64,000 nucleotides of DNA from Patescibacteria group bacterium (GTDB lineage: Bacteria > Patescibacteriota > Minisyncoccia > Minisyncoccales > Staskawiczbacteraceae). A model generated the notes under the pieces. It was not told where the DNA came from and did no database searches. It saw only the letters and a program-made list of their open reading frames with translations. Below, one piece after another: positions 13,226-62,853 of the stretch. Numbering within the stretch: the first letter of the stretch is position 1; the number at the start of each line of letters is the position of its first letter. Made by a program: the position numbers and the translations under genes. The DNA is taken from NCBI GenBank assembly GCA_022703425.1, contig JAKLDQ010000002.1:12876-76875 (forward strand), read 5' to 3'.

Positions 13226-13227
13226 GC

Positions 13228-13575
13228 GTGGAACTAAAACAATTTGTAAAAAACGTTTTAAAAGATATAACAGAGGCGGTCGAAGAAACACGAAAAGAGT
13301 CATCTAGAGATATGCATTTGGATAGCTCAAAGGATCAACGCACCGTTGAGTTTGATGTTGCCGTAACGGCCGAAGATGTAACATCGGCTACTGGTAAAGC
13401 CGGGGTGAAGGTTTTTTCTGTTTTGGAGGGAGGAGGCGAAGTGGGGAAAGAGGTAAAAAGTTCATCGGTGAGCAGGATTAAATTTGGAGTTTCAGTAGAT
13501 AGATGGACTAAACAAGAAAATGCCGGTTTTCAAAATCAATTTCATCAATTAGACGATAGAAATAGTGCTAAATAA
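13228..13575 (+). CDS. Small protein resembling the trypco2 conflict-system domain
   Basis: GTG start 2 nt after the hsdM stop; its TAA overlaps the hsdS ATG (TAATG). The pattern is helix, then VEFDVAVTA, GKAGVKVFSVLEGGGEVGKE and SRIKFGVSV. Confidence 0.45.
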   Translation: MELKQFVKNVLKDITEAVEETRKESSRDMHLDSSKDQRTVEFDVAVTAEDVTSATGKAGVKVFSVLEGGGEVGKEVKSSSVSRIKFGVSVDRWTKQENAGFQNQFHQLDDRNSAK

Positions 13576-14852: not shown

Positions 14853-14854
14853 AT

Positions 14855-16258
14855 ATGTTTATTAAAGAACTTAAGATTAAAAATTTTAGATTATTTCCGA
14901 GTGATAGTGATTTTTCAATAGAAAATGTCAATGTCCCAGATTTACAAAATGAAGGAAGCGGTTTAAATTTATTTGTCGGTGAAAATGGATGCGGAAAAAC
15001 AACTCTGCTAGATGCTTTCGCTTTGCCTTTACTCCAATACAAAGCAGATAGTTTTTCTATTAATGACTTTAATAATCCCCAAGACAAATGCTATCTAAGT
15101 ATCTTATCTGAAGAGAATTTTACCGTCGCTAAAACCGTTCCAAGAAGTTATTTTGAGGCAAAAGGATTTTCGTTCGATGGCCGTGTTAGATCTAGGGAAA
15201 ATAGGATATATTTGTCATCCATTGTAGTTACAAATCAAGAATTTATACCAACAAACCCGGAAAGTTTTAAAGAGAATAGTCCTGACTTGAGAATAAAAGT
15301 CGATAATCCATGGGCGGGACCTAGATTTACCGAAAATGATATTGTTGTTTTAGACAAAAATCGAATAAACCAAACTCGTTCGGGAGTTTATAATTCCACA
15401 AGATTTGATCGGCTCTTGGAAGATTTTGATTTTCAATATATCAAGAACGGCAATATTGATGATTTGTGTGAAACTATAAAAAAATCTATACAGGGGGTAG
15501 AAAACGAATTTCTCAAAAAAGCGATGGTCAAATTTGAAGAAATTAGTAGGGAAAAAATTTCTTTGAATTATATAGATAATTGGCGACCACATAGCAAAGC
15601 TTTTCTAGGGACGCAAAAAGAAAACAAGCAACTTATACCTCTTAGTATGCTAGGTTCTGGATACGAAATGATTTTTTCTCTTATTTATTCTTTTTATCTT
15701 TCCCAGCAAAGCGGAAAACAGCTCATAATTTTAATCGATGAACCCGAATTGCATCTCCACCCTAAGATACAAGAAGATTTTGTCAAAATTTTATTAGAAT
15801 TTTCAAAGACTGCTCAGATTATTTTGACAACTCAATCTCCGCTTTTAGTAAAGCAGGTCATGTACAACGATAAGGCGAAAGTCAGTGTAATAAAGAAAGA
15901 TGTTAATAGGGTCTACATTTCTCCGCTAGACGATCGGCTTTTACCATATGTATCTGCTAACGAAATTAACTTCATAGCTTATGATTTTGCAACAGAAGAA
16001 TATCATAATGAACTTTACGAAGAATTGCAAATTAGAGAAAACAATAAGCGAGCCGCGCCATTATGCTTAAAGGATTTTGATCTACATTTTTTTCAAAAAG
16101 AAAAAGGGGAGATAGCAGATCGTCCGTACAACGGGAGTAGTAACCAAGTTAGTATTCACACGCATTTAAGAACCCAAATTCATCATCGGGGAACTTCTGG
16201 AAGACCAGATGCTGCAGAAATAGAAGCGTCAATAAAAAAAATGAGAACATACTTTTAG
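14855..16258 (+). CDS. ABC/SMC-like (AAA_15/21-type) ATPase with uncharacterised C-terminal domain, embedded between hsdS and hsdR
   Basis: Walker A GENGCGKTT, signature-like LSMLGSGYE, Walker B LIILIDEPELHLHP. The C-terminus contains SIHTHLRTQIHHRG. ATG at 14855, 2 nt after the hsdS stop. Confidence 0.75.
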   Translation: MFIKELKIKNFRLFPSDSDFSIENVNVPDLQNEGSGLNLFVGENGCGKTTLLDAFALPLLQYKADSFSINDFNNPQDKCYLSILSEENFTVAKTVPRSYFEAKGFSFDGRVRSRENRIYLSSIVVTNQEFIPTNPESFKENSPDLRIKVDNPWAGPRFTENDIVVLDKNRINQTRSGVYNSTRFDRLLEDFDFQYIKNGNIDDLCETIKKSIQGVENEFLKKAMVKFEEISREKISLNYIDNWRPHSKAFLGTQKENKQLIPLSMLGSGYEMIFSLIYSFYLSQQSGKQLIILIDEPELHLHPKIQEDFVKILLEFSKTAQIILTTQSPLLVKQVMYNDKAKVSVIKKDVNRVYISPLDDRLLPYVSANEINFIAYDFATEEYHNELYEELQIRENNKRAAPLCLKDFDLHFFQKEKGEIADRPYNGSSNQVSIHTHLRTQIHHRGTSGRPDAAEIEASIKKMRTYF

Positions 16259-16260
16259 CT

Positions 16261-29804: not shown

Positions 29805-29869
29805 ATTAGTAAATTATATACCAAATTTGAACAAACAAAAAACAGGGCCTTAAACCCTGTCCTTTGGTG

Positions 29870-30252
29870 CCTCAGCAAGACCATAAGCCGAATTCTGTTT
29901 TATGTGATCATCTGTCTGTCCTCGGCATTACTGCCGGAATCAAGCGAACTACTTTTAACCCTTCAACAAGCTTCAAGGCAAGCAACCAATTGGTTTTTTG
30001 TTTACCCTGAGCTTGCCGAAGGGCTTTGTTCTTGCGCCCGATAAGGATTTAGCCGTTTCATTTTTACATTGCTGTAAAACTATTCCCTGAAGGAATGCCA
30101 GGCCTTTCAGCCTGTGCCGTTTCTGTTCGCACCTCGCGCATTACTGCGGACGGCTGTTAGCCGCTATCTTTTTAGATCCCTTGCGGGAAATGGGTGTTCG
30201 GACTTTCCTCCCTGCCTACATTACATAGGAGAGCGATCACTCATCTTGCTAA
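29870..30252 (-). ncRNA. rnpB: RNase P RNA (bacterial type A-like)
   Basis: The reverse complement reads AGCAAGATGAG...GGGAGGAAAGTCCGAACACC...ACAGAATTCGGCTTATGGTCTTGCT. This covers the conserved P4 strands and P1 pairing (AGCAAGA/TCTTGCT). A terminator hairpin follows at about 29838-29866. Ends are approximate. Confidence 0.85.
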
Positions 30253-39062: not shown

Positions 39063-42000
39063 ATGAAGTTTAAGCTATTCATCACCATTGGTTTGGCAGT
39101 TGTTTTGTTGTGTTCTGCACTGGGTGCAAGCGCCATGACAGATGCCGAACGACAGGCATTTATTGCGCAATTGCAGGCGCAAATAGTGCAATTACAGCAA
39201 CAGCTTACTCAGTTGTTGGCACAGCCAACGCAGGTTTCTGCGACACCTCAGACAACAACGACGGCCGATGATTCCTGGTGTTACACGTTCAGATACAATC
39301 TTGGCACGACAAACACGGGTTTTGGTGTAACAAACCTAAAAATTGCTCTGCAAAGGGAGGGATTCAGCACGGCCGGAGATGAACAGGGCGTTTATGGCAC
39401 CGCAACGATAGCAGCAGTAAAGGCATTCCAGGAAAAATATTCTTCTGAAATTCTGAGGCCATATGGATTAACCGTGGGAACAGGATATTTTGGAACTTCA
39501 TCAAGGACAAAAATGAATACGCTGTACGCTTGTGCAGATGATCCGATAGCCCCTGTTATTACAGACGGCACATGCGGATGGGAATGCGGAGTGTGGAGCG
39601 CTTGCGCGGGCGGACAGCAGACGAGAACCTGCACAAAGATCAGAGACTGTGCAACGGGAGCTACACCAAGTCCTGCAACTCAGCAATCATGCAGGCCTGC
39701 TGAACAAAACTGCACTCCATACTGGACATGCCAGGCATGGAGCACTTGTGTCGGCGGATCACAGACACGTCTTTGCTACGACTCACAGATGTGCGGAACA
39801 ACATCAGGAAAACCTGTTACAGAAAGAAGTTGCGAGGCTCCGAGATCTTGTTCTCCAAGCTGGACATGCGGAGCGTGGAGTGCTTGCAACACAAACGGAT
39901 TGCAAACAAGAACTTGTACTGACTCAAACGGATGCGGAACGACTTTGGGCAAGCCGGCAGTTTCACAGGCGTGCGGATCAACAACTCCAAATAATGAAAT
40001 TGTTATCTCAAATTGCAATTGGGATTGCGGAGCATGGAGCGCTTGCGCGAGCGGAAGGCAGACAAGAACATGCGTAGCTTCTATGCCAGCTTATACTTCT
40101 GGAGGGCAGGTAAATTGGTTAACAGACGGTAATTGCTATGATGAAACAGGCCATCTTATAAGGGCTGTTGTTACAAGAGAATGCGGGGCGTCGTGCACTT
40201 CAAAATGGATGTGTTCGCAGTGGGGTGTATGTTCTGGAAACTATGGAAACGAATCAAAGAGCAGAGTTTGTATGGACTTGAACGGATGTGATACTCCTAC
40301 AAATCCGCCCGCAACTACAACAAGAGAGGGATGCACATATAACTGTGCGCCGAACTGGCAGTGCACAGGGTGGTCATCATGCAATGGCGGACAACAAACA
40401 AGAATTTGTACGGATTTAAATAATTGTGGAGGAACACAGCAAAGGCCTGAAACAACGCAGTCATGTTCAACATCATGCACTCCAAGCTGGCAGTGTTCGG
40501 GATGGGGAACATGCGGAAATATCGATACAACGGCAACAAGTTCGTTTCAGGGCATCGGCACTCAATCAAGAGTTTGTTATGATTCAAGCAATTGCGGAAT
40601 TACTACTAACAAGCCGCACACTTTGCAGAGTTGCACCGCAAGCTGTACGCCTGTATGGGTCTGTTCGAATTGGAGCACTTGCACATATGGATCACAAAGC
40701 AGAAGCTGTACCGACACATCACATTGTTCAGATGCGAGAGCAGGATATTTCTTGTCAAAACCCGCGACATCACGATCATGCGGAGGATCTGTTGTGGTTG
40801 ATCCCGTCTGCACTCCAAACTGGCAGTGCGGAATATGGGGAAATTGCATAAATAATCAGCAAACGAGAACATGCACTGATGCAAGCGGATGCGGAGTTTC
40901 AACGGGCGCTCCGTCGTTAACCAGGTCTTGCACAGCATGCGTTCCTGATTGGAGATGCGGAGACTGGACACAATGCATAAACGGAAGGCGGTCAAGAATC
41001 TGCACTGACGCAAATAGTTGCAATACAACAGAGGGCAGGCCAGCGACTGATGATCTTTCCTGCGCATCATGCACACCCAATTGGGTTTGTACAAATTGGT
41101 CTTCCTGTGTTTACGGACAGCAGACAAGAACATGCACGGACTCAAATCATTGCGGATATAACACGGGCAAACCTGCAGAAGCGCAGGGATGCGCTTTGTC
41201 ATGCACTCCAAACTGGCAGTGCACAGGATGGACTTCCTGCAGCAATAATCAGCAAACGAGAACATGCACTGATGCAAGCGGATGCGGAACGACTTTTGGG
41301 AAACCGATTGAGAGTCAATCATGCTCAACAACAAGCTGTGTTCCTACATGGCAATGTACGAATTGGTCTGCCTGTTCGAGCGGCGCAGAAAGAAGAACGT
41401 GTACAGATATCAATCATTGCGGAGGAACAGAAAACAAACCGTCTGAAGTTCGTACGTGCACGGCAGCTGGAACTTGCAGCAGAGACTGGAGATGCAGTTT
41501 GTGGAGTCCTTGCATAAACAATCAGCAGACAAGAACTTGCACACCAAATAATTATTGTCCTCCGCTAAGTATCATTACAGATCCGACCTCGCCTAACACC
41601 ACACAGTCTTGTTCGGTAAACTGCAATCCTTTGTGGCAATGCAGTGCATGGTCAGGGTGTTCCTCTAGCAATCAGCAGACAAGAACATGCACAGATTATT
41701 ATCACTGCGGAGTTGATACTTCGATCCCTCCGCTGGTGCAATCATGCTGCACTCCAAACTGGCAGTGCACAGGGTGGGGAACTTGTATTAACGGAAACCA
41801 GACAAGAACATGCACGGATTTGAGCGGATGCCCGAATGCAACAAGGCCGGCAACAACTCAAACCTGCGGATCCACCTGTATTCCAAACTGGCAGTGCGGA
41901 GCGTGGAATAATTGTTTCGCAAATCAGCAGACAAGAACTTGCACAGACACAAATAATTGCGGTGTTACAACAAACAGGCCGGCATTGTCGCAGTCGTGCA

Positions 42001-43037
42001 CGGTTTCACAAAACTGCACTCCAAATTGGAATTGCGGAGCATGGACAACATGTTCAAATTACAGCCAGACGAGAATCTGCAACGATTCAAACAACTGCGG
42101 AATAACAGAAAACAGGCCTATTACAACACAGTCCTGCACAAACAGCTGTACTCCAAATTGGCTTTGTGGAGCTTGGAGTTCCTGTGTAAACACAATACAA
42201 ACGAGATCGTGCCAGGATTATAACGGATGTGGGATAATTACAGGAACTATGATGGGAAATGGAACGCGCGCGGTAGTTCCTGCAGACAGGCAAAGCTGTA
42301 CGACAGGCCAGGGTCTTCCGACAGCGGACATAAAAGCAAACGGATCTGACGGAGCTGTAACATTTTTATCTACCGGCACAGGAAACACAGTTTCTTTGAA
42401 TCTTGCGTGGACTTCGGCAAATGCGCTTTCCTGTCAGGCTTCGTTTGAAACAATTTCGGGAGTGACATATTCGCACTCGCTTTGGAACGGAAGTGTGCCA
42501 TTAACCGGCACAAGAGAAATTTCGGGAATTGCTGTACCAAAAGAAACAGAAACTCTTGTTTTCAAAATTGTATGCACCGGAAATGCCGGAATTGCAACTG
42601 ATACTGTGAAAATAATAGTTTTGCCCGTGATGAATTTGAACGGATTTGCCTGTCCTACAACTTATGGCACATTCAGCTGGCAGGCAAATGATTTGTCGAG
42701 GGTCCCCGGAACTGTTGATATGTATCCGAACGGTTACACTGGTACAGGACTCTATATGCCGGTCTACGTAGGAATTATCACAGTTAATGATGCGTCTTCA
42801 TTGGGAACTGTAACGCGCGGAAACGTTATCACACAGTCACTGCAAAGCGGAGGAACTTTTGGAAGGGGATCGACAACATTCTCGCATGAACAGTGTGCCA
42901 GCGCGGACGGACCGCAGGGTGTGGCCGGAATGAATCCGGATAAATATCTGGTTGCCGCAGTAAGCGTTCCGCAAAAAGATGCCAGCGGAAACGAAACCAG
43001 CCAGATGGTGGTAATTTCCTCGAGAAGACTTTATTAA
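39063..43037 (+). CDS. Giant secreted protein: signal peptide, Q-rich coiled coil, PG-binding-like domain, about 19 Cys/Trp-rich repeats, C-terminal beta-rich domains
   Basis: Signal MKFKLFITIGLAVVLLCSALGASA. Coiled coil QAFIAQLQAQIVQLQQQLTQLL. PG-binding-like GTATIAAVKAFQEKY. Repeat unit CTPNWQCxxWSxCxxxQQTRTCTDxxxCGxxxxxPxxxQSC. Confidence 0.85.
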   Translation: MKFKLFITIGLAVVLLCSALGASAMTDAERQAFIAQLQAQIVQLQQQLTQLLAQPTQVSATPQTTTTADDSWCYTFRYNLGTTNTGFGVTNLKIALQREGFSTAGDEQGVYGTATIAAVKAFQEKYSSEILRPYGLTVGTGYFGTSSRTKMNTLYACADDPIAPVITDGTCGWECGVWSACAGGQQTRTCTKIRDCATGATPSPATQQSCRPAEQNCTPYWTCQAWSTCVGGSQTRLCYDSQMCGTTSGKPVTERSCEAPRSCSPSWTCGAWSACNTNGLQTRTCTDSNGCGTTLGKPAVSQACGSTTPNNEIVISNCNWDCGAWSACASGRQTRTCVASMPAYTSGGQVNWLTDGNCYDETGHLIRAVVTRECGASCTSKWMCSQWGVCSGNYGNESKSRVCMDLNGCDTPTNPPATTTREGCTYNCAPNWQCTGWSSCNGGQQTRICTDLNNCGGTQQRPETTQSCSTSCTPSWQCSGWGTCGNIDTTATSSFQGIGTQSRVCYDSSNCGITTNKPHTLQSCTASCTPVWVCSNWSTCTYGSQSRSCTDTSHCSDARAGYFLSKPATSRSCGGSVVVDPVCTPNWQCGIWGNCINNQQTRTCTDASGCGVSTGAPSLTRSCTACVPDWRCGDWTQCINGRRSRICTDANSCNTTEGRPATDDLSCASCTPNWVCTNWSSCVYGQQTRTCTDSNHCGYNTGKPAEAQGCALSCTPNWQCTGWTSCSNNQQTRTCTDASGCGTTFGKPIESQSCSTTSCVPTWQCTNWSACSSGAERRTCTDINHCGGTENKPSEVRTCTAAGTCSRDWRCSLWSPCINNQQTRTCTPNNYCPPLSIITDPTSPNTTQSCSVNCNPLWQCSAWSGCSSSNQQTRTCTDYYHCGVDTSIPPLVQSCCTPNWQCTGWGTCINGNQTRTCTDLSGCPNATRPATTQTCGSTCIPNWQCGAWNNCFANQQTRTCTDTNNCGVTTNRPALSQSCTVSQNCTPNWNCGAWTTCSNYSQTRICNDSNNCGITENRPITTQSCTNSCTPNWLCGAWSSCVNTIQTRSCQDYNGCGIITGTMMGNGTRAVVPADRQSCTTGQGLPTADIKANGSDGAVTFLSTGTGNTVSLNLAWTSANALSCQASFETISGVTYSHSLWNGSVPLTGTREISGIAVPKETETLVFKIVCTGNAGIATDTVKIIVLPVMNLNGFACPTTYGTFSWQANDLSRVPGTVDMYPNGYTGTGLYMPVYVGIITVNDASSLGTVTRGNVITQSLQSGGTFGRGSTTFSHEQCASADGPQGVAGMNPDKYLVAAVSVPQKDASGNETSQMVVISSRRLY
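39564..42300 (+). repeat. Tandem array of about 19 coding repeats (about 43-60 codons each) inside the giant gene
   Basis: I counted CxPxWxC...QTRxC units in the translation. Several stretches are identical at the DNA level, for example 40851-40895 = 41244-41288. Confidence 0.85.
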
Positions 43038-44558: not shown

Positions 44559-44629
44559 CGCGCCTTGGAGGAGTAGTACCTCGACAGTCTCATAAGCTGT
44601 AGGCCCCCGTGCAATTCGGGGAGGCGCAA
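44559..44629 (+). tRNA. Atypical tRNA-like gene, anticodon CAT, initiator-like C1:A72 acceptor end
   Basis: Hand-folded: acceptor CGCGCCT/AGGCGCA with a C1-A72 mismatch. D stem GAGG/CCTC, anticodon arm ACAGT-CTCATAA-GCTGT, T arm CCCCG-TGCAATT-CGGGG. The D loop lacks GG, the T loop is TGC rather than TTC, and there is no encoded CCA. Confidence 0.4.
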
Positions 44630-44639
44630 CATAAAATCT

Positions 44640-44716
44640 GCCGGGGTAGCTCAGTTGGTAAGAGCGTCGCACTCATAACGCGAAGGTCGAGAGTTCGATT
44701 CTCTCCCTCGGCACCA
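44640..44716 (+). tRNA. tRNA with CAT anticodon (elongator Met, or Ile2 if lysidine-modified), CCA encoded
   Basis: GCCGGGGTAGCTCAGTTGGTAAGAGC...CTCATAA...GGTCGAGAGTTCGATTCTCTCCCTCGGCACCA folds as a canonical cloverleaf. Confidence 0.9.
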
Positions 44717-44717
44717 T

Positions 44718-44793
44718 GCGGGCATAGTCCAGCCTGGTTTAAGACGCCTCCCTGTCACGGAGGAGATCGGGGGTTCAAATCCCCCTGCCCGCG
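44718..44793 (+). tRNA. tRNA-Asp (GTC)
   Basis: GCGGGCATAGTCCAGCCTGGT...CCTCCCTGTCACGGAGG...GGGGGTTCAAATCCCCCTGCCCGCG. No encoded CCA. Confidence 0.9.
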
Positions 44794-44933
44794 CAACGTA
44801 AGAAATTGCAAGCAATTTCAACGTTGCTGAGGCGTTTAATTTCTAAGAGAAATTATTACGCCTCGCCAACGATAAGATGTAGCTGAAACGTTCCCCGCTT
44901 GCGGGACTACGTCTCGCCATGAATTAAATACAG

Positions 44934-57195: not shown

Positions 57196-59346
57196 ATGAA
57201 AATAAATATAAAAGAAATCGACGAGGAAAAGGCAGAGCCCGTTCGGCCATCTCAGGGCAAAAAAACGGTTTCCGCAAAGCCAAATCCAAAACCCAAGGCA
57301 GAAAGAAAAACTGCTGTTGTTAAGGCAAAACCGGAAAAAGTGAAAAAAGAAAAACCGGTGAAGGAAACAAAGGTTAATGCAGCTGAGGAGATAAAGCAAA
57401 CTGTTTCTGAGCAGATTGCTGCGAAAAAGGGAAAGGCGCGCAAAGAAGGAGAATATACAGCAAAAGATATTTATGTTTTGAAGGGCTTGGAGCCCGTAAG
57501 AATGAGGCCGGGAATGTATATCGGAGGCACAGGGCTGGACGGATTGCATCATTTGATATGGGAAGTTCTGGACAATTGTCTTGATGAAGCAATGGCAGGG
57601 CACGCAAAAAACATCGAAGTTGTTTTGTTGCCAAACAACAGAGTAAAAATATCAGACGACGGAAGAGGAATTCCGGTTGAAAAACATCCCGATACGGGCA
57701 AATCGACTTTGGAAACTGTTTTAACAACCTTGCATGCGGGGGGAAAATTTGGCGGAGAAGCTTATAAAGTTTCGGGCGGTTTGCACGGAGTGGGTATTTC
57801 GGTTGTCTGCGCCCTTTCAACATTTATGCTTTCGGAAGTTCACAGAGATGGAGGAGTTTATCAGCAGGAATATTTTAGGGGTGCTCCAAAAACTTCTGTA
57901 AAAAAAGTCGGCGAAACAAAGAGAACCGGAACTACTCAGACATTCGAAGCCGATCCGCAAATATTTTCAGAAATAAAATATGATGCAAAAAGAATTTTAA
58001 CTCATATCCGCCAGCAGGCATATCTCACGAAGGGAGTAAGAATAACCTTCAAAGACGAAAGAGAGAAGGGCAAAGAGACAAGTTATACATTTTATTTTGA
58101 AGGAGGCGTAAGTTCATATGTAAAATATTTGGTTTTGGGGAACACGCCAAGACATGACAACATTTTTTCGACAGCAATAGATAAAAATGGAATTTATGTT
58201 GAAGCGGCATTTCAGTACACGCAAGAAATGGAATGCACAGAACAGAGTTTCGCAAATAATATTTACACACCAGAAGGCGGAACACATATTTCCGGATTTA
58301 GAACAGCTTTAACAAGATGCCTAAATGATTATGCGAGAAGGGAGGGATTTTTAAAGGAGAAAGATGAAAACTTCACAGGAGACGATGTGCGGGAAGGATT
58401 GACCGCGGTGATTTCTGTTAAAATCAGAACGCCACAATTTGAAGGACAGACAAAAGCAAAACTTGGAAATCCTGAGGCAAAGAATGCGGTTGAGGCGGCA
58501 ACATCAGAAGGGCTGTCAGATTATTTGGAAAGATATCCGCAAGATGCGAAGGGTATTATTGAAAATTGCATGCTTGCATCAAAAGCAAGGATTGCAGCAA
58601 AAGCTGCAAGGCAGACTGTTTTGAGAAAAGGAGCATTAGAGGGGCTGGCTTTACCGGGAAAATTAGCGGACTGCCTTTCAAGAAAACCCGAAGAATCAGA
58701 ACTTTACATTGTTGAGGGAGATTCCGCCGGCGGTTCTTCAAAGCAGGCAAGGGACAGAAGGTTCCAGGCAATTCTGCCGTTAAGGGGAAAAATTTTAAAT
58801 GTGGAAAGAGCCAGACTGGACAAAATGCTTTCATCAAAGGAAATCAAGGCATTGATTATTGCAATGGGAACGGGTATCGGAGAAGATTTTAATATTGAAA
58901 AATTAAGATACCACAGAATTGTAATCATGACAGATGCCGACGTTGACGGCGCTCACATAAGAACTCTTTTGCTGACATTTTTTTACAGGCATTTCAAGCA
59001 AATAGTGGAAAATGGGCACATATTTATTGCGCAGCCGCCCCTGTATAAAATACAGTCCGGAAAAACTGCCGAGTATGCATATTCAGACGATCAGAGAGAT
59101 AAAATTGTAAAGCAAATTGGAAAAACATCTGTTTCTATACAGAGGTATAAGGGTCTTGGCGAAATGAATCCCGATCAGCTTTGGGAAACAACAATGAATC
59201 CGGAAAACAGAACATTGTTGCAGGTAGCAGTTGAGGAGGCGCACGAGGCCGATAAAACATTTGATATATTAATGGGGGAGGAAGTGGAACCAAGAAAGAA
59301 GTTTATTCAGACACACGCCAAAGCGGCAAAGAACATTGATGTGTAA
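57196..59346 (+). CDS. gyrB: DNA gyrase subunit B with about 90-aa Lys-rich N-terminal extension
   Basis: GHKL ATPase motifs (LHHLIWEVLDNCLDEA, DDGRGIP, GGLHGVG). Toprim motifs (EGDSAGG, PLRGKILNV, IMTDADVDGAHI). The canonical start (YVLKGLEPVRMRPGMYIG) begins at about residue 92. Confidence 0.9.
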   Translation: MKINIKEIDEEKAEPVRPSQGKKTVSAKPNPKPKAERKTAVVKAKPEKVKKEKPVKETKVNAAEEIKQTVSEQIAAKKGKARKEGEYTAKDIYVLKGLEPVRMRPGMYIGGTGLDGLHHLIWEVLDNCLDEAMAGHAKNIEVVLLPNNRVKISDDGRGIPVEKHPDTGKSTLETVLTTLHAGGKFGGEAYKVSGGLHGVGISVVCALSTFMLSEVHRDGGVYQQEYFRGAPKTSVKKVGETKRTGTTQTFEADPQIFSEIKYDAKRILTHIRQQAYLTKGVRITFKDEREKGKETSYTFYFEGGVSSYVKYLVLGNTPRHDNIFSTAIDKNGIYVEAAFQYTQEMECTEQSFANNIYTPEGGTHISGFRTALTRCLNDYARREGFLKEKDENFTGDDVREGLTAVISVKIRTPQFEGQTKAKLGNPEAKNAVEAATSEGLSDYLERYPQDAKGIIENCMLASKARIAAKAARQTVLRKGALEGLALPGKLADCLSRKPEESELYIVEGDSAGGSSKQARDRRFQAILPLRGKILNVERARLDKMLSSKEIKALIIAMGTGIGEDFNIEKLRYHRIVIMTDADVDGAHIRTLLLTFFYRHFKQIVENGHIFIAQPPLYKIQSGKTAEYAYSDDQRDKIVKQIGKTSVSIQRYKGLGEMNPDQLWETTMNPENRTLLQVAVEEAHEADKTFDILMGEEVEPRKKFIQTHAKAAKNIDV

Positions 59347-59410
59347 TAACATTCCGACCCCATTCAAGGAGGGTCGGAATGAAGTGGAGCCTGTCTGAGC
59401 AGGCACAGGG

Positions 59411-59440
59411 AAACGGCCCAGCAATTGCTGGGCCGTTTCA
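59411..59440 (+). terminator. Hairpin terminator after gyrB
   Basis: aaacggcccagc / gctgggccgttt long stem, then a T-rich tail. Confidence 0.6.
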
Positions 59441-59443
59441 TAT

Positions 59444-59472
59444 TTGACAAAAAATAATTTTCCGTATATATT
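59444..59472 (+). promoter_or_regulatory. Near-consensus promoter
   Basis: ttgaca, 17 nt, tatatt. Confidence 0.6.
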
Positions 59473-59520
59473 ATAAACGTAGCTCTTTCTGGAAATTTAA
59501 TTCTGAAAGGGAGTGCAGAA

Positions 59521-59784
59521 ATGTGCGACATATCTCAGGAAGAAATTGGAACATCTCTTAATGGGAAAATACTTGGAAAAATGCCCAGCAGAGAAAGGCA
59601 ATTTTTTCTGGACCTTCTTTCGGAATTCAACGCGCTGATAAGACAAAGATATCAAGACGGCTTCGAGCCGCCCTTTGCTCCGTCTCCGTCGTTGAGAGAA
59701 AAATTTCGCAAAGCCGTTGGCTTGTATAACGGCACAAAATATAAACAGGTGAGAGATCTTGCCGGACTTTTTTTGTTTGAATAA
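59521..59784 (+). CDS. 87-aa hypothetical protein
   Basis: SD aagggag upstream. The terminator ggcccga/tcgggcc follows at about 59798-59825. Confidence 0.55.
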   Translation: MCDISQEEIGTSLNGKILGKMPSRERQFFLDLLSEFNALIRQRYQDGFEPPFAPSPSLREKFRKAVGLYNGTKYKQVRDLAGLFLFE

Positions 59785-59896
59785 AAACCTGTTATATCGG
59801 CCCGAAAAATATCGGGCCTTTTGTTTTGACAATTCACCATTTTGGGTGTAAATGTAAAATAAATTTGTTCATTGACTTGTAAAACGGAGAAAAACC

Positions 59897-60208
59897 ATGG
59901 CAAACCAGCAAAATATGGTTTGTGTCAGGGTTGATTGCAAGTGCGCCTACGGGCCAGATTTTAATTTTTTTCCTTTGGGAATCGAAGGCATACATCGTAT
60001 TTCAAAAAATGATGCGCGGGCGAGAGTCGGCGCATATTGGACAAAGAGGACGTCGGTTTGCCCCGGCAAACTTTTTTACCCTTTTTGTCTTCTGGAAAAT
60101 TGCTGCGCGGAGGGCGTGGTAGAGCAAGTCGTTGAAACCTGCGAGAATTGCAGGTTTGCGATTCTAAAGGATTGTCCGCTCAATAGGACCGACAGGATTT
60201 CTGCATAA
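59897..60208 (+). CDS. 103-aa Cys-rich hypothetical protein
   Basis: SD acggag upstream. 10 Cys, including CVRVDCKC and CENC...C. Confidence 0.55.
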   Translation: MANQQNMVCVRVDCKCAYGPDFNFFPLGIEGIHRISKNDARARVGAYWTKRTSVCPGKLFYPFCLLENCCAEGVVEQVVETCENCRFAILKDCPLNRTDRISA

Positions 60209-60218
60209 GGAGCATGCT

Positions 60219-60530
60219 ATGTATTTTCCAAGAACAATTGAAGAGCTTGAAAAAAAGTTTGAAGGGTTTTGCAGATTAAATTCAAAGGAAGCGGCCGAAG
60301 CCGCATTTGCGCTCGGAGCGCATTATTTTAAAACCCGGCATCCTGCCAAGGGAAGATTCTATCTCGCAAAATGCCTTCAGCTTTTGGGAACGGAAACAGA
60401 GACCTTGGAGGAATGCCAGGCAATTAACCAGCGAATCTGCGGAATCGAAATCCCAGAGCTTTTCCATGAAGGTGTGGTCGCGTTTCGCCTTCAACAGTGG
60501 GAGGAAAAAGCCTCCCCGGCAGCCGCCTGA
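60219..60530 (+). CDS. 103-aa helical (TPR-like) hypothetical protein
   Basis: SD aaggag upstream, 10 nt after the previous stop. AAFALGAHYFKTRHPAKGRFYLAKCLQLL resembles a TPR helix pair. Confidence 0.55.
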   Translation: MYFPRTIEELEKKFEGFCRLNSKEAAEAAFALGAHYFKTRHPAKGRFYLAKCLQLLGTETETLEECQAINQRICGIEIPELFHEGVVAFRLQQWEEKASPAAA

Positions 60531-60540
60531 AACGGAAAAC

Positions 60541-60570
60541 GGCCAAAGCCTATCGCTTTGGCTTTTATTT
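60541..60570 (+). terminator. Rho-independent terminator
   Basis: gccaaagc-ctatc-gctttggc followed by a T-run. Confidence 0.75.
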
Positions 60571-60586
60571 TAAATGAAGAGGGAAC

Positions 60587-60615
60587 TTGACACGAAATTA
60601 TATATGTGCTATAAT
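60587..60615 (+). promoter_or_regulatory. Consensus sigma70 promoter
   Basis: ttgaca, 17 nt, tataat (perfect hexamers). Confidence 0.7.
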
Positions 60616-60661
60616 TAAGAAAGAGTACATTTTAACCCTGTTCTGGAAAGGAGTTCCTAAA

Positions 60662-61126
60662 ATGAGGATGTTGACAATCGAAAGGATTCGAGCATTTGAT
60701 AGGATGCCAGAGTTGGCGGACCTGGCAGAGCAGGCGAAGCTTGCAAGCATGGAACACGAGGATTGTCGTGAGGCAATCCTCTATCTGGCATTCAAGCTTC
60801 GGATTCCTGTTCCGGAGCTGTCATCGTACATCTGGTTGAAAGCTTACATCGCTGAGCTTTCGCTTTCATACGATGAAGTGCCAGATCCGGAAATTGTTGC
60901 CCAACAATTCGGAATTAACTGGGATGACTTCCAGGTTTACTTGGACGAGCAAGCCATGCTTCTCGGTCAGAAATTGGAAGAAATTCCGGATCGGAACGGT
61001 GACTTCGGAGTTTGCTCCGAGGTTCTGGATCGATCCGGCGATCTTGCCTTCTTCAGTGATGAAGAGGAGGCATATCTTGCCGACCTTCAGGAAGAGGCCG
61101 GCGACCTCCCTTACGGGAGTTTCTGA
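60662..61126 (+). CDS. 154-aa acidic hypothetical protein, paralog A
   Basis: SD aaaggag upstream. I chose the ATG at 60662. It shares an N-terminal motif and central region with 61241-61699. Confidence 0.6.
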   Translation: MRMLTIERIRAFDRMPELADLAEQAKLASMEHEDCREAILYLAFKLRIPVPELSSYIWLKAYIAELSLSYDEVPDPEIVAQQFGINWDDFQVYLDEQAMLLGQKLEEIPDRNGDFGVCSEVLDRSGDLAFFSDEEEAYLADLQEEAGDLPYGSF

Positions 61127-61130
61127 TTTA

Positions 61131-61160
61131 TGCCCTGCGACGCGCGCGTCGCAGGGCTTT
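61131..61160 (+). terminator. Rho-independent terminator
   Basis: gccctgcgacgcg / cgcgtcgcagggc stem followed by T5. Confidence 0.85.
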
Positions 61161-61164
61161 TTGT

Positions 61165-61193
61165 TTGACATGAAAAATTTAATATGCTCAAAT
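61165..61193 (+). promoter_or_regulatory. Near-consensus promoter
   Basis: ttgaca, 17 nt, tcaaat. Confidence 0.55.
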
Positions 61194-61240
61194 CAAGTTA
61201 GCTCATTGTATCCCGGCTTCTCTTTGCAAAGGAGTTTGAA

Positions 61241-61699
61241 ATGGGACGGATTCGTACGGTTAAACCAATTTCGATTGATAGGATTCGTGTTATAGATGCC
61301 ATTGGCGAAAGGGAACTCCGCCTTTTTATTTGTCTTGGCGACGCTTATGGGGCGCCTCCTCCATTTTTTTTGCGCGACGAACACGTTGATAAAATCGATC
61401 TTATTAACCTTTCGATGAAATGGAACGTTCCTCTTGAGGAATTTTTCACGTACGTTGCTGTCCAGAGATATATTCACGCTTATATAAGAGAAACAACCGG
61501 AGATATTCCGCTTCCAGAAGATATTGCAGACAGGCTCGATATTCCGGCAGATGAGTTTCTGAAATATATAAAAGAAAAAAAGGAGGAGCTTCTTCAGGCG
61601 CACACTGCCAAACATGCCGAAGATAATTGGCGAGAGGGAATTCAGGATGAACTGCAGGATATACACGATTCAATTGCGGAGGAGCAGGATGCGCAATAA
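61241..61699 (+). CDS. 152-aa acidic hypothetical protein, paralog B
   Basis: SD aaaggag upstream. SIDRIRVIDAI aligns with TIERIRAFDRM of paralog A, and WNVPLEEFFTYVAVQRYI aligns with LRIPVPELSSYIWLKAYI. Confidence 0.6.
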   Translation: MGRIRTVKPISIDRIRVIDAIGERELRLFICLGDAYGAPPPFFLRDEHVDKIDLINLSMKWNVPLEEFFTYVAVQRYIHAYIRETTGDIPLPEDIADRLDIPADEFLKYIKEKKEELLQAHTAKHAEDNWREGIQDELQDIHDSIAEEQDAQ

Positions 61700-61818
61700 A
61701 TCAGCCCGGGCTTTGCCAGGGCTTTTCTTTTTAATTGAAATAGGAACAGATTTGTGTTATTATTCATGTCAGCGCCTTGAAAACTTTTTGTGTGGTTTTG
61801 AGGAGAAGGAGATTCTCA

Positions 61819-62523
61819 ATGCTCGGGGAACTGCTGGGTTATGCTGTTTTTTTGAGGCACGGCCAAACAGAGTACACAGATAAATTTCCGGATTTGACGC
61901 CGGAAGGTATTGAAACAATAGAAAGAAGTTCCTCGTTAATTAAAACAATAATTGATTCGCTTGGGAACCAATGTGGCCCTCTGGCGATTACGTGTTCAGA
62001 GGCCCCCAGGGCATGCGGATCCGCGTCCATTATCGCAAAGGAATTAAAGTATGAGGTCACTCCCATACAATCTTCTTTGCTAAACCCGGCAAAAGTGCTG
62101 GATACGATCGTTGGCCTTGAGATGTATAACCGGTATATGAGAAACGGCGGAATGCGCTCATTGTGCGTGGCATTTTCCACTGATCCGCGGTTTGAAGAAG
62201 GCGGATTTATGGAGCCGCGCTCTGCGTGTAAAAAGAGATTTTTCAGCTATCTTGGCATGCTTGTAAGGAATCTGATAGCATCCGGCAATCACAGTTTTGT
62301 GGTGAGCGTTTCGCACTATGAGACGCTTTGCCATTTGGTTGAGCAGATATTTATGCTCGATTACGAACTTGATGAGCCGCTTTGGCACGGTGAAATCATC
62401 CAGATTTCCATTTACGAGTGGGTAAGGGATTTTGTGGAAATGAAAATAACTTTCAGAAACCGAACGGCTGGCCGAATCTTGTTTAACCACAGAACAAACC
62501 ACATTTTGACAGGTCCTGCATAG
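61819..62523 (+). CDS. Histidine phosphatase (phosphoglycerate-mutase-like) superfamily protein
   Basis: RHG motif (AVFLRHGQTEYT) and a later SHYETL His. I chose the ATG at 61819, after the SD gaggagaaggag. Confidence 0.6.
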   Translation: MLGELLGYAVFLRHGQTEYTDKFPDLTPEGIETIERSSSLIKTIIDSLGNQCGPLAITCSEAPRACGSASIIAKELKYEVTPIQSSLLNPAKVLDTIVGLEMYNRYMRNGGMRSLCVAFSTDPRFEEGGFMEPRSACKKRFFSYLGMLVRNLIASGNHSFVVSVSHYETLCHLVEQIFMLDYELDEPLWHGEIIQISIYEWVRDFVEMKITFRNRTAGRILFNHRTNHILTGPA

Positions 62524-62569
62524 CAGGATTTTTTTTGTTATAATAAAAAAAGAGATCTAAAAAGCGCCC

Positions 62570-62598
62570 TTGACTAATCGCTAATAATCGGCTATCAT
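62570..62598 (+). promoter_or_regulatory. Putative promoter upstream of secE-nusG
   Basis: ttgact, 17 nt, tatcat. Confidence 0.5.
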
Positions 62599-62658
62599 AT
62601 AGAAAAGATGGCCGCCAAGGCCGTTTTTTAAAACATCGATATTCAAATCAAATATATT

Positions 62659-62853
62659 ATGACAATAACTCAAAAAGTTAACGTATTTTTCAAGGAAGTC
62701 TGGGTTGAAATGAGAAAAGTGAGCTGGCTTTCAAGAAAGGAAGTTGTAAGATACACGCTTATTGTGCTTGCTGTAACATTTGCGGTTTCTGCTTTTCTGG
62801 GAGGGCTGGACTTTATTTTTACAGAGATTTTAAAGAGAATAGTTCTCAAATAA
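62659..62853 (+). CDS. secE: Preprotein translocase subunit SecE
   Basis: 64 aa with a single TM. FFKEVWVEMRKVSWLSRKEVVRYT. Conserved position upstream of nusG. Confidence 0.85.
   Translation: MTITQKVNVFFKEVWVEMRKVSWLSRKEVVRYTLIVLAVTFAVSAFLGGLDFIFTEILKRIVLK

What the first reader, a model, noticed from the sequence alone, without database searches (positions are those of the whole stretch)
59440..62540. 3.1-kb G+C-richer island of six orphan genes between gyrB and secE, each unit with a consensus promoter and hairpin terminator
Seen: five transcription units cover 59521-59784, 59897-60530 (two genes), 60662-61126, 61241-61699 and 61819-62523. Most have TTGACA-17-TATAAT-like promoters; 60587-60615 has perfect hexamers. 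All have strong SD sequences, and most are followed by GC-rich hairpins. In contrast, housekeeping genes in this window are packed with overlaps and few signals. The products are an 87-aa protein, a 10-Cys 103-aa protein, a TPR-like 103-aa protein, two acidic paralogs and a histidine-phosphatase-superfamily protein. I could not recognise the first five. By eye the base composition is higher in G+C than in neighbouring genes. Inference: a horizontally acquired accessory island of unknown function. Options include a host-interaction or anti-defence cargo, or a remnant of a mobile element lacking its mobility genes.
Basis: partly seen in the sequence, partly recalled or inferred. Interest (0 to 1): 0.55.

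Follow-up and report, generated by a model that had tools for sequence, protein, structure and literature searches.

The report
Variable gene slot between gyrB and secE
This stretch is not a foreign island but a fast-changing gene slot in a tiny uncultured (CPR/Patescibacteria) bacterium, and its fixed resident is an undescribed small acidic protein family found at the same spot in every related genome where its context could be read.

Summary
The sequence features are real. There are six + strand ORFs in five units. Four perfect TTGACA -35 boxes sit 71-77 nt upstream of start codons, one promoter is a 12/12 consensus match, and hairpin terminators follow the units.

Composition is native: GC is 0.443 against 0.407 (+1.25 sd), the tetranucleotide z-score is 0.05, and the codon-usage distance ranks 6th of 44. 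There are no mobility genes, flanking repeats, or phage or plasmid homologues.

The organism is a Staskawiczbacteria-like Patescibacterium, mislabelled Smithellaceae in NCBI. In its relatives gyrB is followed by secE-nusG-rplK, with a gap of 70 bp to 4.3 kb that holds different genes in each genome.

The two "acidic paralogs" are not orphans. A profile search found 61 further cluster representatives. In all 10 distinct related genomes with readable context, the homologue lies downstream of gyrB and/or just upstream of secE. Nearly all carry a near-consensus extended -10 promoter, and GC3 is above the genome GC in every genome. The AlphaFold model is confident (pLDDT 84), but no solved or viral structure matches it, and no Pfam, NCBIfam, PHROG or PADLOC family does.

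The phosphatase gene is a divergent histidine phosphatase with all catalytic residues conserved. In a sister genome it sits directly after gyrB. Only the first three ORFs lack detectable relatives, and the sensitive search could not be run on them.

Function is inferred, at low confidence, to be a protein-binding polyanionic regulator.

The parts
59352..59439 (+). Region after the gyrB stop codon (59344-59346). It holds a hairpin at 59352-59379 and a perfect 15+15 nt palindrome at 59410-59439 followed by a T-rich run. This is the likely gyrB terminator and the left edge of the slot.
   Evidence: Sequence read; inverted repeat I7.
59444..59472 (+). Promoter-like site of unit 1: TTGACA-17-TATATT (11/12). 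The -35 box lies 77 nt upstream of the ATG.
59521..59784 (+). ORF p87 (87 aa, pI 8.9). It has no detectable relative. Its codon score is the most native-like of the six ORFs.
59799..59818 (+). Intrinsic terminator of unit 1: 7-bp stem with 6 G-C pairs, followed by TTTTGTTTTG.
59826..59854 (+). Promoter-like site of unit 2: perfect TTGACA, a 17-nt spacer, and a weak -10 box (TAAATG). The -35 box lies 71 nt upstream of the ATG.
59897..60208 (+). ORF pCys (103 aa, 10 Cys, pI 8.1). It has no detectable relative, the weakest coding score of the six, and an unusable single-sequence AlphaFold model (pLDDT 47).
60219..60530 (+). ORF pTPR (103 aa). It starts 10 nt after the pCys stop and has its own AAGGAG Shine-Dalgarno sequence, so the two form one operon. 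It has a single sub-threshold TPR_2 hit.
60541..60563 (+). Intrinsic terminator of unit 2.
60587..60615 (+). Promoter of Ac1: TTGACA-17-TGcTATAAT (12/12, extended -10). TTGAC and TATAAT are invariant in all 7 sequences of the promoter alignment.
   Evidence: alignment A4.
60662..61126 (+). Ac1 (154 aa, pI 4.1), a member of the undescribed acidic helical family (Ac1 subtype). It has a six-helix core (residues 1-106), an acidic disordered linker and a C-terminal helix carrying a DLQEEAG motif.
61132..61157 (+). Intrinsic terminator of Ac1: 11-bp stem with 9 G-C pairs. It is the strongest terminator in this part of the window.
61165..61193 (+). Promoter-like site of Ac2: perfect TTGACA, a 17-nt spacer, and TGcTCAAAT. 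The -35 box lies 76 nt upstream of the ATG.
61241..61699 (+). Ac2 (152 aa, pI 4.7), a paralog of the second subtype (YG.PPPFF insertion). Homologues of this subtype in other genomes lie directly upstream of secE.
61705..61731 (+). Imperfect hairpin (CCCGGGCTTTGCCAGGG) followed by a T-rich run. This is a weak terminator-like site after Ac2.
   Evidence: Sequence read. One search lists the stem only on the - strand.
61735..61763 (+). Promoter-like site of the phosphatase gene: TTGAAA-17-TGtTATTAT (10/12).
61819..62523 (+). pHP (234 aa), a divergent branch-1 histidine phosphatase. RHG (13-15), R64 and H166 are invariant across the 8 family members.
   Evidence: synteny.
62511..62531 (+). Terminator overlapping the pHP stop codon. 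It marks the right edge of the slot.
62570..62640 (+). secE promoter (TTGACT-17-TATCAT) followed by a conserved hairpin near the 5' end of the transcript. It is conserved in 10 related genomes, so it belongs to the ancestral flank and not to the insert.
   Evidence: alignment A7.

Best explanation
The 3.1-kb segment is this genome's version of a lineage-wide variable gene slot. The slot lies between gyrB and the secE-nusG-rplK operon of a Staskawiczbacteria-like Patescibacteria (CPR) bacterium. It is not a foreign island.

The slot is built from self-contained units, each with a sigma-70-type promoter, a short leader, a Shine-Dalgarno sequence and a terminator. Different genomes carry different cargo in it: YbaB, NUDIX, an APRT-MTAP fusion, UPF0047, SPFH, or unknown genes.

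Its anchored resident is a previously undescribed family of small (about 100-170 aa), cytoplasmic, acidic, all-helical proteins. The window carries one member of each of the two subtypes (Ac1 and Ac2). Nearly every member examined sits behind a near-consensus extended -10 promoter and a leader no more structured than its shuffles. Their GC3 is well above the genome GC. Together these features point to strong constitutive expression.

Inferred mechanism (not shown): the six-helix N-terminal domain, the disordered polyanionic linker and the conserved C-terminal DLQEDAG helix act as a protein-binding or nucleic-acid-mimicking regulator. The likely partner is a basic DNA- or RNA-handling protein, such as gyrase, a nucleoid protein like YbaB, or RNA polymerase/NusG. 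The family is unlikely to bind DNA itself.

The sixth gene is a catalytically intact but divergent histidine phosphatase, also linked to gyrB in a sister genome. The first three ORFs are species-specific additions of unknown origin.
For: SHOWN
- Organism: GyrB is 83% identical to Ca. Staskawiczbacteria, and all the nearest hits are Patescibacteria.
- Synteny: gyrB is followed by secE-nusG-rplK at 70-760 bp in L002-L005, L017 and L018.
- Family: a profile of the two paralogs found 61 further cluster representatives of 99-173 aa, 25 hits in all at E<1e-10.
- Context: all seven metagenome loci with a homologue (six distinct genomes; two loci are identical sequence) place it between gyrB (81-86% identical) and secE.
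- Context: three further look-ups give pheS-gyrB-NUDIX-Ac2type-secE-nusG (L099), pheS-gyrB-YbaB-Ac-secE-nusG (L102) and Ac2type-secE (L097).
- Cargo: the rest of the slot differs between genomes, with Pfam-confirmed content.
- Promoter: TTGAC and TATAAT are invariant at 17-nt spacing, with TG in six of the seven aligned sequences. Similar sites occur upstream of most of the more distant members.
- Leaders are not more structured than their shuffles.
- Family GC is 0.44-0.54 and GC3 0.44-0.65, against locus GC of 0.30-0.43 in every genome.
- Ac1 has the highest C-ending and G-ending codon use of all 53 genes scored in the window.
- Structure: pLDDT 84.4, core above 90. Median family pI is 4.4.
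- Composition of the island is native.
- Phosphatase.

INFERRED
- High expression, from the promoter, the leader and the codon bias.
- Protein-binding or nucleic-acid-mimic function, from the acidity, the architecture, and the neighbourhood of gyrB, YbaB (in 4 of the 10 related genomes) and the nusG/ribosomal-protein/RNA-polymerase cluster.
Against: - No expression data exist for any of the units.
- No homology or fold match supports any specific function. The best Foldseek hit in the PDB has E 1.2 and TM-score at most 0.3, and the best BFVD hit has E 0.35.
- The family is absent from this slot in the closest GTDB representative (L002) and is not seen on the short contig L087, so it is dispensable or can sit elsewhere.
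- Contexts were obtained for only about 12 of the 61+ family representatives. All of them are close relatives, so the synteny rule may not hold across the whole family.
- Orthologues are only 32-38% identical while GyrB and NusG are 81-93% identical. That fits weak constraint as well as it fits a conflict-driven role.
- High GC3 could instead reflect repeated replacement from a GC-richer source.
- The three leading ORFs could not be searched with the sensitive method, so "species-specific" is provisional.
Confidence: 0.7

Rival explanations
1. The whole 3.1-kb block is a recently acquired horizontal-transfer island with host-interaction or anti-defence cargo.
For: - The block is absent from L002-L005 and from all 80 GyrB-anchored loci.
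- GC is slightly raised.
- pCys and pHP have codon scores below the range of the background genes.
- Every unit is self-contained, with its own promoter and terminator.
- The resident proteins diverge fast.
Against: - Tetranucleotide z-score is 0.05, the codon distance ranks 6th of 44, and GC is only +1.25 sd.
- Three of the six genes have syntenic homologues in relatives.
- No PADLOC, PHROG, phage, plasmid or IMG/VR match was found.
- The window's real compositional outliers lie elsewhere: the type I restriction-modification block at 11.6-19 kb and the 1324-aa ORF.
Confidence: 0.1
2. The block is a remnant of a prophage, integrative element or transposon that has lost its mobility genes.
For: - It consists of small unknown genes in a compact same-strand array between conserved genes.
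- The same site holds variable content in other genomes, which resembles an integration hotspot.
Against: - There are no flanking direct repeats beyond chance-level matches, and no tRNA nearer than 44.8 kb.
- No integrase, transposase or phage-family hit was found.
- No tblastn match was found in the phage or plasmid collections.
- No family member was found in IMG/VR.
- The cargo in relatives is ordinary cellular: YbaB, NUDIX, APRT-MTAP, SPFH.
Confidence: 0.04
3. The acidic family members are orphan immunity or antitoxin-like proteins, or anti-defence proteins, kept at high level to neutralise a basic toxin, nuclease or restriction enzyme. The target might come from the host of this likely episymbiotic bacterium.
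For: - The proteins are small, acidic and helical.
- They evolve quickly relative to their neighbours.
- They have a strong promoter.
- Two divergent paralogs sit in one genome.
Against: - No toxin or effector gene is adjacent in any of about 12 contexts.
- The chromosomal position is fixed next to core genes, rather than in defence islands.
- No consistent PADLOC or Pfam immunity-family hit was found.
Confidence: 0.1
4. Some of the three leading ORFs, especially pCys, are not real protein-coding genes. They would be chance ORFs or young proto-genes in a transcribed spacer.
For: - pCys has a coding score of 0.035, against 0.30 +/- 0.065 for background genes.
- No homologue was found.
- The AlphaFold model has pLDDT 47.
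- The DNA is 100% identical in five assemblies, so no selection signal is available.
Against: - The annotated frame is the best of six for all three ORFs. p87 scores above the background mean (0.44) and pTPR scores within the background range (0.27).
- Each ORF has a Shine-Dalgarno sequence at the correct spacing. The units have a perfect -35 box at the standard distance and a terminator.
- The 10-nt spacing between pCys and pTPR, with a Shine-Dalgarno sequence in between, looks like designed translational coupling.
Confidence: 0.12

Closest known systems
RNA polymerase delta subunit (RpoE) of Firmicutes. The comparison is from my own knowledge of the family; membership was tested here.
   Same: - Small, abundant cytoplasmic protein.
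- Folded helical N-terminal domain of about 90-105 aa followed by a disordered, strongly acidic C-terminal region.
- Encoded as a stand-alone gene.
- The Ac genes sit next to the nusG / ribosomal-protein / RNA-polymerase gene cluster.
   Different: - No member hits the HARE-HTH model or any other Pfam model consistently.
- Foldseek finds no delta structure.
- Ac proteins end in a conserved helix motif (DLQEDAG..GD) rather than a plain poly-Asp/Glu tail.
- No RNA polymerase association has been shown.
DNA-mimic proteins and small acidic regulators of DNA-binding proteins, such as DMP12/DMP19 and gyrase-binding inhibitors. From my own knowledge.
   Same: - Small and very acidic (pI about 4.4).
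- No basic recognition helix.
- Encoded next to gyrB in every genome and next to the nucleoid protein YbaB in 4 of the 10 related genomes.
   Different: - No sequence or fold similarity to any solved mimic.
- The charge is concentrated in a flexible tail rather than arrayed on a rigid surface, as far as the model shows.
- The link rests on neighbourhood alone.
Histidine phosphatase superfamily, branch 1 (Pfam PF00300; PhoE, GpmB and SixA-like enzymes). This applies to the 234-aa protein.
   Same: - An N-terminal FLRHG motif with the nucleophile His.
- A second Arg (R64) and a second His (SH.E, H166) are invariant in 8 homologues.
- All 8 homologues hit PF00300.
- JGI names one homologue PhoE.
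   Different: - The family is very divergent. The window protein itself scores below the Pfam cut-off (19.9 against 21.7 bits).
- The best PDB sequence match has E 0.006 and covers the N-terminal third only.
- The substrate is unknown.
Genomic islands and integration hotspots between conserved core genes.
   Same: - Conserved flanks (gyrB; secE promoter and leader) with variable content between close relatives.
- Self-contained transcription units.
   Different: - No integrase, att repeats or tRNA.
- No compositional deviation.
- One resident family is stably anchored in the slot.
The sigH-rpmG-secE-nusG-rplK arrangement of Bacillus, where a regulatory gene sits immediately upstream of secE. 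From my own knowledge.
   Same: - A stand-alone regulator-sized gene directly upstream of secE-nusG-rplK.
- Faint sigma-like signals: Sigma70_r3 at E 0.0075-0.038 in two members, and RpoH/RpoS at E 0.5-1.5 against the PDB.
   Different: - All the sigma signals are below significance.
- The proteins are half the size of a sigma factor and acidic.
- No region 2 or region 4 is detected.

Membership tests
Horizontally acquired genomic island | Base composition, codon usage or k-mer signature deviating from the host genome | tested here: not met
   GC is +1.25 sd, and 7% of 3.1-kb windows are at least as GC-rich. The codon distance ranks 6th of 44. The tetranucleotide z-score is 0.05.
Horizontally acquired genomic island | Mobility genes (integrase, transposase, recombinase) or phage or plasmid genes | tested here: not met
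   No such hit was found in Pfam, PHROGs or NCBIfam. No tblastn match was found in the phage or plasmid collections.
Horizontally acquired genomic island | Flanking direct repeats, or insertion next to a tRNA or tmRNA gene | tested here: not met
   Only short, low-identity repeats were found, mostly terminator T-runs. The nearest tRNA lies at 44559-44794.
Horizontally acquired genomic island | Absence from closely related genomes at the same site | tested here: inconclusive
   This is met for p87, pCys and pTPR, which appear in no relative. It is not met for Ac1 and Ac2, which are syntenic in 10 related genomes, or for pHP, which follows gyrB in L087.
Histidine phosphatase superfamily branch 1 (PF00300) | Score at or above the Pfam gathering threshold | tested here: inconclusive
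   The window protein scores 19.9 bits against a cut-off of 21.7. All 8 homologues match at E <= 0.01, the best at 1.3e-7.
Histidine phosphatase superfamily branch 1 (PF00300) | Catalytic RHG motif, second Arg and second His conserved | tested here: met
   R13, H14, G15, R64 and H166 are invariant in the 8-sequence alignment A5, as are several Glu residues.
Histidine phosphatase superfamily branch 1 (PF00300) | Phosphatase or mutase activity | not testable with these tools
   This needs an enzyme assay.
Tetratricopeptide repeat proteins (TPR_2, PF07719) | At least one repeat above the gathering score, normally in tandem arrays of three or more | tested here: not met
   There is a single stretch (residues 26-55) at 22.6 bits against a cut-off of 27. 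The PDB search gives only engineered TPR proteins at E 0.2-0.5.
Sigma-70 family / region 3 | Significant match to sigma regions 2, 3 or 4 | tested here: not met
   Sigma70_r3 scores E 0.038 for Ac2 and E 0.0075 in one other member of 52. RpoH and RpoS chains score E 0.55-1.5.
RNA polymerase delta subunit (HARE-HTH plus acidic tail) | HARE-HTH N-terminal domain | tested here: not met
   No Pfam hit was found in any of 52 members. No delta structure appears among the Foldseek matches.
RNA polymerase delta subunit (HARE-HTH plus acidic tail) | Acidic, disordered C-terminal region | tested here: met
   Residues 107-124 have pLDDT 52-57. Ac1 has 34 Asp/Glu against 12 Lys/Arg, and the family median pI is 4.4.
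Known anti-phage defence systems (PADLOC-DB) | Match of any island protein to a defence-system model | tested here: not met
   The six proteins gave no family. Among the 52 family members there were only three single-member hits at E 0.006-0.009.
Undescribed acidic helical family of the gyrB-secE slot (defined here) | Match to the family profile; core motifs D13, S-Y-[VI]-W-L-[QK]-x-Y, V-A-x-Q-F-G-I, Y93; acidic tail | tested here: met
   Against the family HMM, Ac1 scores 3e-44 and Ac2 3.2e-34. The invariant columns are listed.
Undescribed acidic helical family of the gyrB-secE slot (defined here) | Location downstream of gyrB and upstream of secE, behind a near-consensus extended -10 promoter | tested here: met
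   Window coordinates 60587-61699. The same arrangement is seen in L090, L092-L096, L097, L099 and L102-L104.

The most novel reading that the evidence does not exclude
The acidic helical family is a new, lineage-restricted and highly expressed regulator with a previously unseen fold. It would be anchored next to gyrB and the nusG/ribosomal-protein/RNA-polymerase cluster, and would work as a polyanionic or DNA-mimicking partner of gyrase, a nucleoid protein or RNA polymerase. That would make it a functional analogue of the Firmicute delta subunit or of DNA-mimic proteins, evolved independently in ultra-small CPR bacteria. The gyrB-secE slot would then be a dedicated expression site where new small genes are born or tried out.
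Probability: 0.15. Interest if true: 0.6.

Novelty: new member of a known kind. Interest (0 to 1): 0.36.

Why it matters
CPR/Patescibacteria genomes are tiny, and a large share of their genes has no known function.

This analysis turns a "six orphan genes" observation into a concrete, testable object. It is a small acidic protein family with a confident predicted structure that matches nothing solved. It has a fixed chromosomal address between gyrB and secE, and almost every member examined has a near-consensus extended -10 promoter. If the family proves to be an abundant modulator of DNA topology, the nucleoid or transcription, it would add a lineage-specific component to the core information-processing machinery of these organisms.

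The result also serves as a caution. A run of self-contained small genes that is missing from the nearest reference genome is not by itself evidence of horizontal transfer. In this window the real compositional outliers are a type I restriction-modification block and a giant surface protein, not this segment.

Tried and rejected
1. The word-indexed homologue search with Ac1 found only Ac1 itself. The full HMMER scan later showed that this was a sensitivity limit, not true orphan status.
2. To save searches I ran p87, pCys and pTPR as one concatenated query. It returned nothing, not even the proteins themselves, which are known to be in the database. That run is uninformative and is not counted as a negative.
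3. The 52-sequence alignment A2 was too diverse for the search for related loci. The 15-sequence subtype alignment A3 worked.
4. A single-sequence AlphaFold model of pCys came out at pLDDT 47. It was unusable and was not sent to the fold search.
5. Foldseek searches of the Ac1 model against the PDB and BFVD gave only insignificant helical or HTH matches. A profile search against PDB sequences gave spurious hits to designed repeat proteins (dTor) and sub-significant hits to sigma factors.
6. I tested whether the poly-C tract in the Ac leaders pairs with the Shine-Dalgarno sequence. There is no consensus structure, and the leaders fold no better than their shuffles.
7. I tested whether p87, pCys, pTPR or the 50-aa ORF of L002 are degenerate members of the Ac family. 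They are not (E above 3).
8. I tested whether pCys is related to the Cys-rich ORF next to an Ac member in L101. It is not (E 2).
9. An Rfam search of the segment in E-value mode found nothing near any gathering score.
10. A literature search for the lineage name returned nothing relevant to this locus.
11. No paralogs of any island protein occur elsewhere in the window. The cargo genes seen in relatives (metK, YbaB, NUDIX, APRT-MTAP, UPF0047, SPFH) are not in the window either.

Full report
**1. What is in the sequence**

- 59521-59784 (87 aa, "p87")
- 59897-60208 (103 aa, 10 Cys, "pCys")
- 60219-60530 (103 aa, "pTPR")
- 60662-61126 (154 aa, "Ac1")
- 61241-61699 (152 aa, "Ac2")
- 61819-62523 (234 aa, "pHP")

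gyrB ends at 59346 and secE starts at 62659. nusG and rplK follow.

I trained a codon log-likelihood on 32 other genes of the window. In each of the six ORFs the annotated frame scores best of all six frames.
- p87 scores 0.44, Ac2 0.31, pTPR 0.27 and Ac1 0.23. These lie within or near the background range of 0.30 +/- 0.065.
- pHP (0.12) and pCys (0.035) fall below the background minimum of 0.131.

**2. The transcription signals are real and non-random**

The consensus scan gives three promoter-like sites:
- a 12/12 promoter with an upstream TG at 60587-60615
- an 11/12 site at 59444-59472
- a 10/12 site at 61735-61763

Perfect TTGACA boxes at 59444, 59826, 60587 and 61165 lie 77, 71, 75 and 76 nt upstream of the start codons of p87, pCys, Ac1 and Ac2. 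The whole 64-kb window has only six intergenic perfect TTGACA on the + strand, and four of them are these.

Hairpin plus T-run terminators follow p87, pTPR, Ac1 and pHP. Ac2 is followed only by an imperfect hairpin. pCys and pTPR are 10 nt apart with a Shine-Dalgarno sequence between them, so they form one operon.

The five-unit architecture is therefore confirmed. Other parts of the window also have good promoter-like and terminator-like sites, so the contrast with "housekeeping" regions is one of density, not of kind.

**3. The composition is not foreign**

- GC is 0.443, against 0.407 for the window. The sd of 3.1-kb windows is 0.029, and 7% of them are at least as GC-rich.
- The synonymous-codon distance to the rest of the window ranks 6th among 44 gene runs of equal size.
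- The tetranucleotide distance is at the mean (z 0.05), and 25% of segments deviate at least as much.

The window's real outliers lie elsewhere:
- The AT-rich block at 11.6-19 kb contains a type I restriction enzyme R subunit.
- The 1324-aa ORF at 39063-43037 deviates most in tetranucleotide content.

**4. Whose genome this is**

The best GyrB match in the species-representative genome collection is Ca. Staskawiczbacteria RIFOXYB1_FULL_37_44. It is 83% identical, including the Lys-rich N-terminal extension. The next best matches are other Patescibacteria.

NCBI labels the same proteins "Smithellaceae bacterium" (HOW56925-28). That label looks like a binning error. The island DNA is 100% identical in five assemblies, so there is no polymorphism to analyse.

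**5. Synteny**

In relatives, gyrB is followed by secE-nusG-rplK:
- L002: about 390 bp between them
- L004: 70 bp
- L005: 130 bp
- L017 and L018: about 120-150 bp
- L003: 760 bp

None of the 80 GyrB-anchored loci encodes a homologue of any island protein.

The secE promoter and a hairpin at the 5' end of its leader are conserved between the window and ten relatives. The right border of the variable part therefore lies before about 62560. Even in L002 the short spacer holds a 50-aa acidic ORF with its own TTGACA/TATAAT promoter and terminator.

**6. The "acidic paralogs" are a real, undescribed family anchored in this slot**

Ac1 and Ac2 are distant paralogs: BLASTP E 7e-7, 28% identity over 60 aa.

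The word-indexed search found only Ac1 itself. An index-free profile search of 1.84 billion cluster representatives found 61 further proteins of 99-173 aa, with 25 hits in all below 1e-10.

The family splits into two subtypes:
- An Ac1-like subtype with the motifs HEDN, SSYVWLQxYIxEL and VVAQQFGI.
- An Ac2-like subtype with a YG.P.PFF insertion and the motif MAKKWGV.

Many members of both subtypes end in an acidic stretch and a DLQEDAG..GD motif.

No Pfam, NCBIfam, PHROG or PADLOC model matches the family consistently.

A scan of JGI metagenome contigs with the Ac1-type alignment returned seven loci besides the window's own sequence. In all seven, the homologue lies between a gyrB that is 81-86% identical to the window's and secE. 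Two of the seven (L090 and L091) are identical sequence, so they represent six distinct genomes.

Exact-sequence look-ups of further members gave the same picture:
- L099: pheS-gyrB-NUDIX-[Ac2 type]-secE-nusG-rplK
- L102: pheS-gyrB-YbaB-[divergent member]-secE-nusG
- L097: [Ac2 type]-secE

Every context long enough to read is therefore the same slot. No member was found on IMG/VR viral contigs.

**7. The slot's other cargo differs from genome to genome**

Pfam-checked contents:
- L090: a 678-aa Ser/Thr/Ala-rich protein and an APRT-MTAP fusion
- L092: the same APRT-MTAP fusion
- L093 and L099: NUDIX
- L094, L095, L096 and L102: YbaB
- L095: additionally UPF0047, SPFH and two small membrane proteins

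None of these genes is present in the window. The window's p87, pCys and pTPR occur in none of the relatives.

The best description is a hot spot of gene turnover with one anchored family.

**8. Properties of the family**

- Promoter. In the alignment of seven sequences, TTGAC and TATAAT are invariant at 17-nt spacing, and six of the seven have the TG of an extended -10. Most of the more distant members show similar sites.
- Leader. The 5' leaders are 40-60 nt long and fold no better than their shuffles.
- GC content. In every genome the gene is much more GC-rich than its surroundings: GC 0.44-0.54 and GC3 0.44-0.65, against locus GC of 0.30-0.43. In the window, Ac1 has the highest share of C-ending and G-ending two-fold codons of all 53 genes scored.

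So the part of the island that looks "GC-rich" reflects a stable property of this gene family, not a mark of recent import. Together with the promoter and the leader, it points to high expression. That is an inference.

- Structure. AlphaFold2 with the 52-sequence alignment gives pLDDT 84.4 and pTM 0.68. The model has a six-helix core (residues 1-106, pLDDT above 90), a low-confidence acidic linker and a C-terminal helix at 125-146.
- Fold matches. Foldseek finds nothing significant in the PDB (best E 1.2, TM-score at most 0.3) or in BFVD (best E 0.35).
- Charge. The median family pI is 4.4.
- Divergence. Orthologues are only 32-38% identical between genomes whose GyrB and NusG are 81-93% identical.

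**9. The phosphatase**

pHP has seven homologue clusters at 40-48% identity. All eight proteins hit His_Phos_1, the best at E 1.3e-7. RHG, a second Arg and the SH.E histidine are invariant.

In L087 the arrangement is pheS-gyrB-pHP-metK. Its GyrB is 89% and its PheS 82% identical to the window's. A gyrB-pHP linkage therefore predates the window's genome.

Other homologues sit in unrelated contexts.

**10. The three leading ORFs**

There are no family, structure, phage or plasmid hits. At 90% identity their clusters hold no sequence from any other genome.

The concatenated word-index search failed technically. "No relatives" is therefore provisional. The pCys model was unusable.

**11. Mechanism**

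Shown:
- the architecture, synteny and conservation of the promoter
- the acidity and the predicted domain organisation
- the lack of any known relatives

Inferred: the Ac proteins are abundant cytoplasmic factors that bind a protein partner rather than DNA. They are acidic and have no conserved basic helix.

Their neighbours suggest a link to DNA topology, the nucleoid or transcription:
- gyrB in every genome
- YbaB in 4 of the 10 related genomes
- the nusG/ribosomal-protein/RNA-polymerase cluster downstream

The architecture resembles the Firmicute RNA polymerase delta subunit and DNA-mimic proteins. That comparison comes from my own knowledge, and membership in those families was tested and not met.

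I put about 0.7 on the structural and evolutionary account, and about 0.15-0.2 on the specific functional inference.

**12. Verdict**

- The "horizontally acquired island of six orphans" reading is only partly right.
- What remains of interest is an undescribed, apparently highly expressed small acidic protein family with a fixed address and no known fold relative.
- That is moderately interesting for CPR biology but not a surprise in kind.

Noticed in passing
window 62570-62640: The secE leader starts with a conserved promoter (TTGACT-17-TATCAT). About 10 nt downstream lies a conserved hairpin, AUGGCC-loop-GGCCAUUUUAAAAAC. The stem is kept and the loop varies across 10 related genomes (alignment A7). 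It could be a stabilising 5' hairpin or an attenuator. No Rfam family matches it.
   Followed up: partly
window 60616-60661; also L090-L096, L099, L101 and L102 upstream of the Ac genes: Every Ac-family gene has a poly-C tract of 3 to 9 C in its 5' leader, 10-25 nt upstream of the Shine-Dalgarno sequence. The tract length differs between genomes. No conserved pairing with the Shine-Dalgarno sequence was found, and the leaders fold no better than their shuffles. The role of the tract is unexplained.
   Followed up: partly
window 11648-19068: This AT-rich block (GC 0.34) has the most deviant codon usage in the window. It contains a type I restriction enzyme R subunit (16261-19068; HSDR_N, SWI2_SNF2, EcoR124_C). 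It is a better candidate for a horizontally acquired defence island than the segment under study.
   Followed up: partly
window 39063-43037: A 1324-aa ORF with second-codon-position GC of 0.62 and the most deviant tetranucleotide content in the window. Its only Pfam hit is a peptidoglycan-binding domain near the N-terminus. It is probably a giant low-complexity surface protein.
   Followed up: no
whole window; NCBI proteins HOW56925-HOW56928: NCBI assigns these proteins to a "Smithellaceae bacterium" MAG. However, GyrB, PheS, NusG and RplK are closest to Staskawiczbacteria/Patescibacteria. The contig is probably misbinned.
   Followed up: partly
L090 and L091 (JGI1356J14229_10000004, positions 292907-313332 and 498637-519062): Two 20.4-kb stretches of one 621,589-bp metagenome contig are identical base for base. 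This is either an assembly concatenation or a very recent large duplication.
   Followed up: no
L101 834-1094: Directly downstream of an Ac-family member lies another small Cys-rich ORF (12 Cys in 87 aa, cut off by the contig end) with its own TTGACA promoter. It shows no BLAST similarity to the window's pCys (E 2).
   Followed up: partly
L002 12100-12380: The closest reference genome has a single 50-aa, very acidic ORF in the gyrB-secE spacer, with its own TTGACA/TATAAT promoter and terminator. It does not match the Ac-family profile (E 4.7).
   Followed up: partly
L002 9150-9995; L014 12040-16693: Other junctions of the same conserved gene string also vary. L002 has a 281-aa ORF inserted between pheS and gyrB that the window lacks. 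An Uhrbacteria genome (L014) has 4.6 kb between gyrB and secE.
   Followed up: no
window 29868-30252 (- strand): RNase P RNA (bacterial class A) scores only 109 bits against a gathering score of 100. This suggests a divergent RNase P RNA.
   Followed up: no
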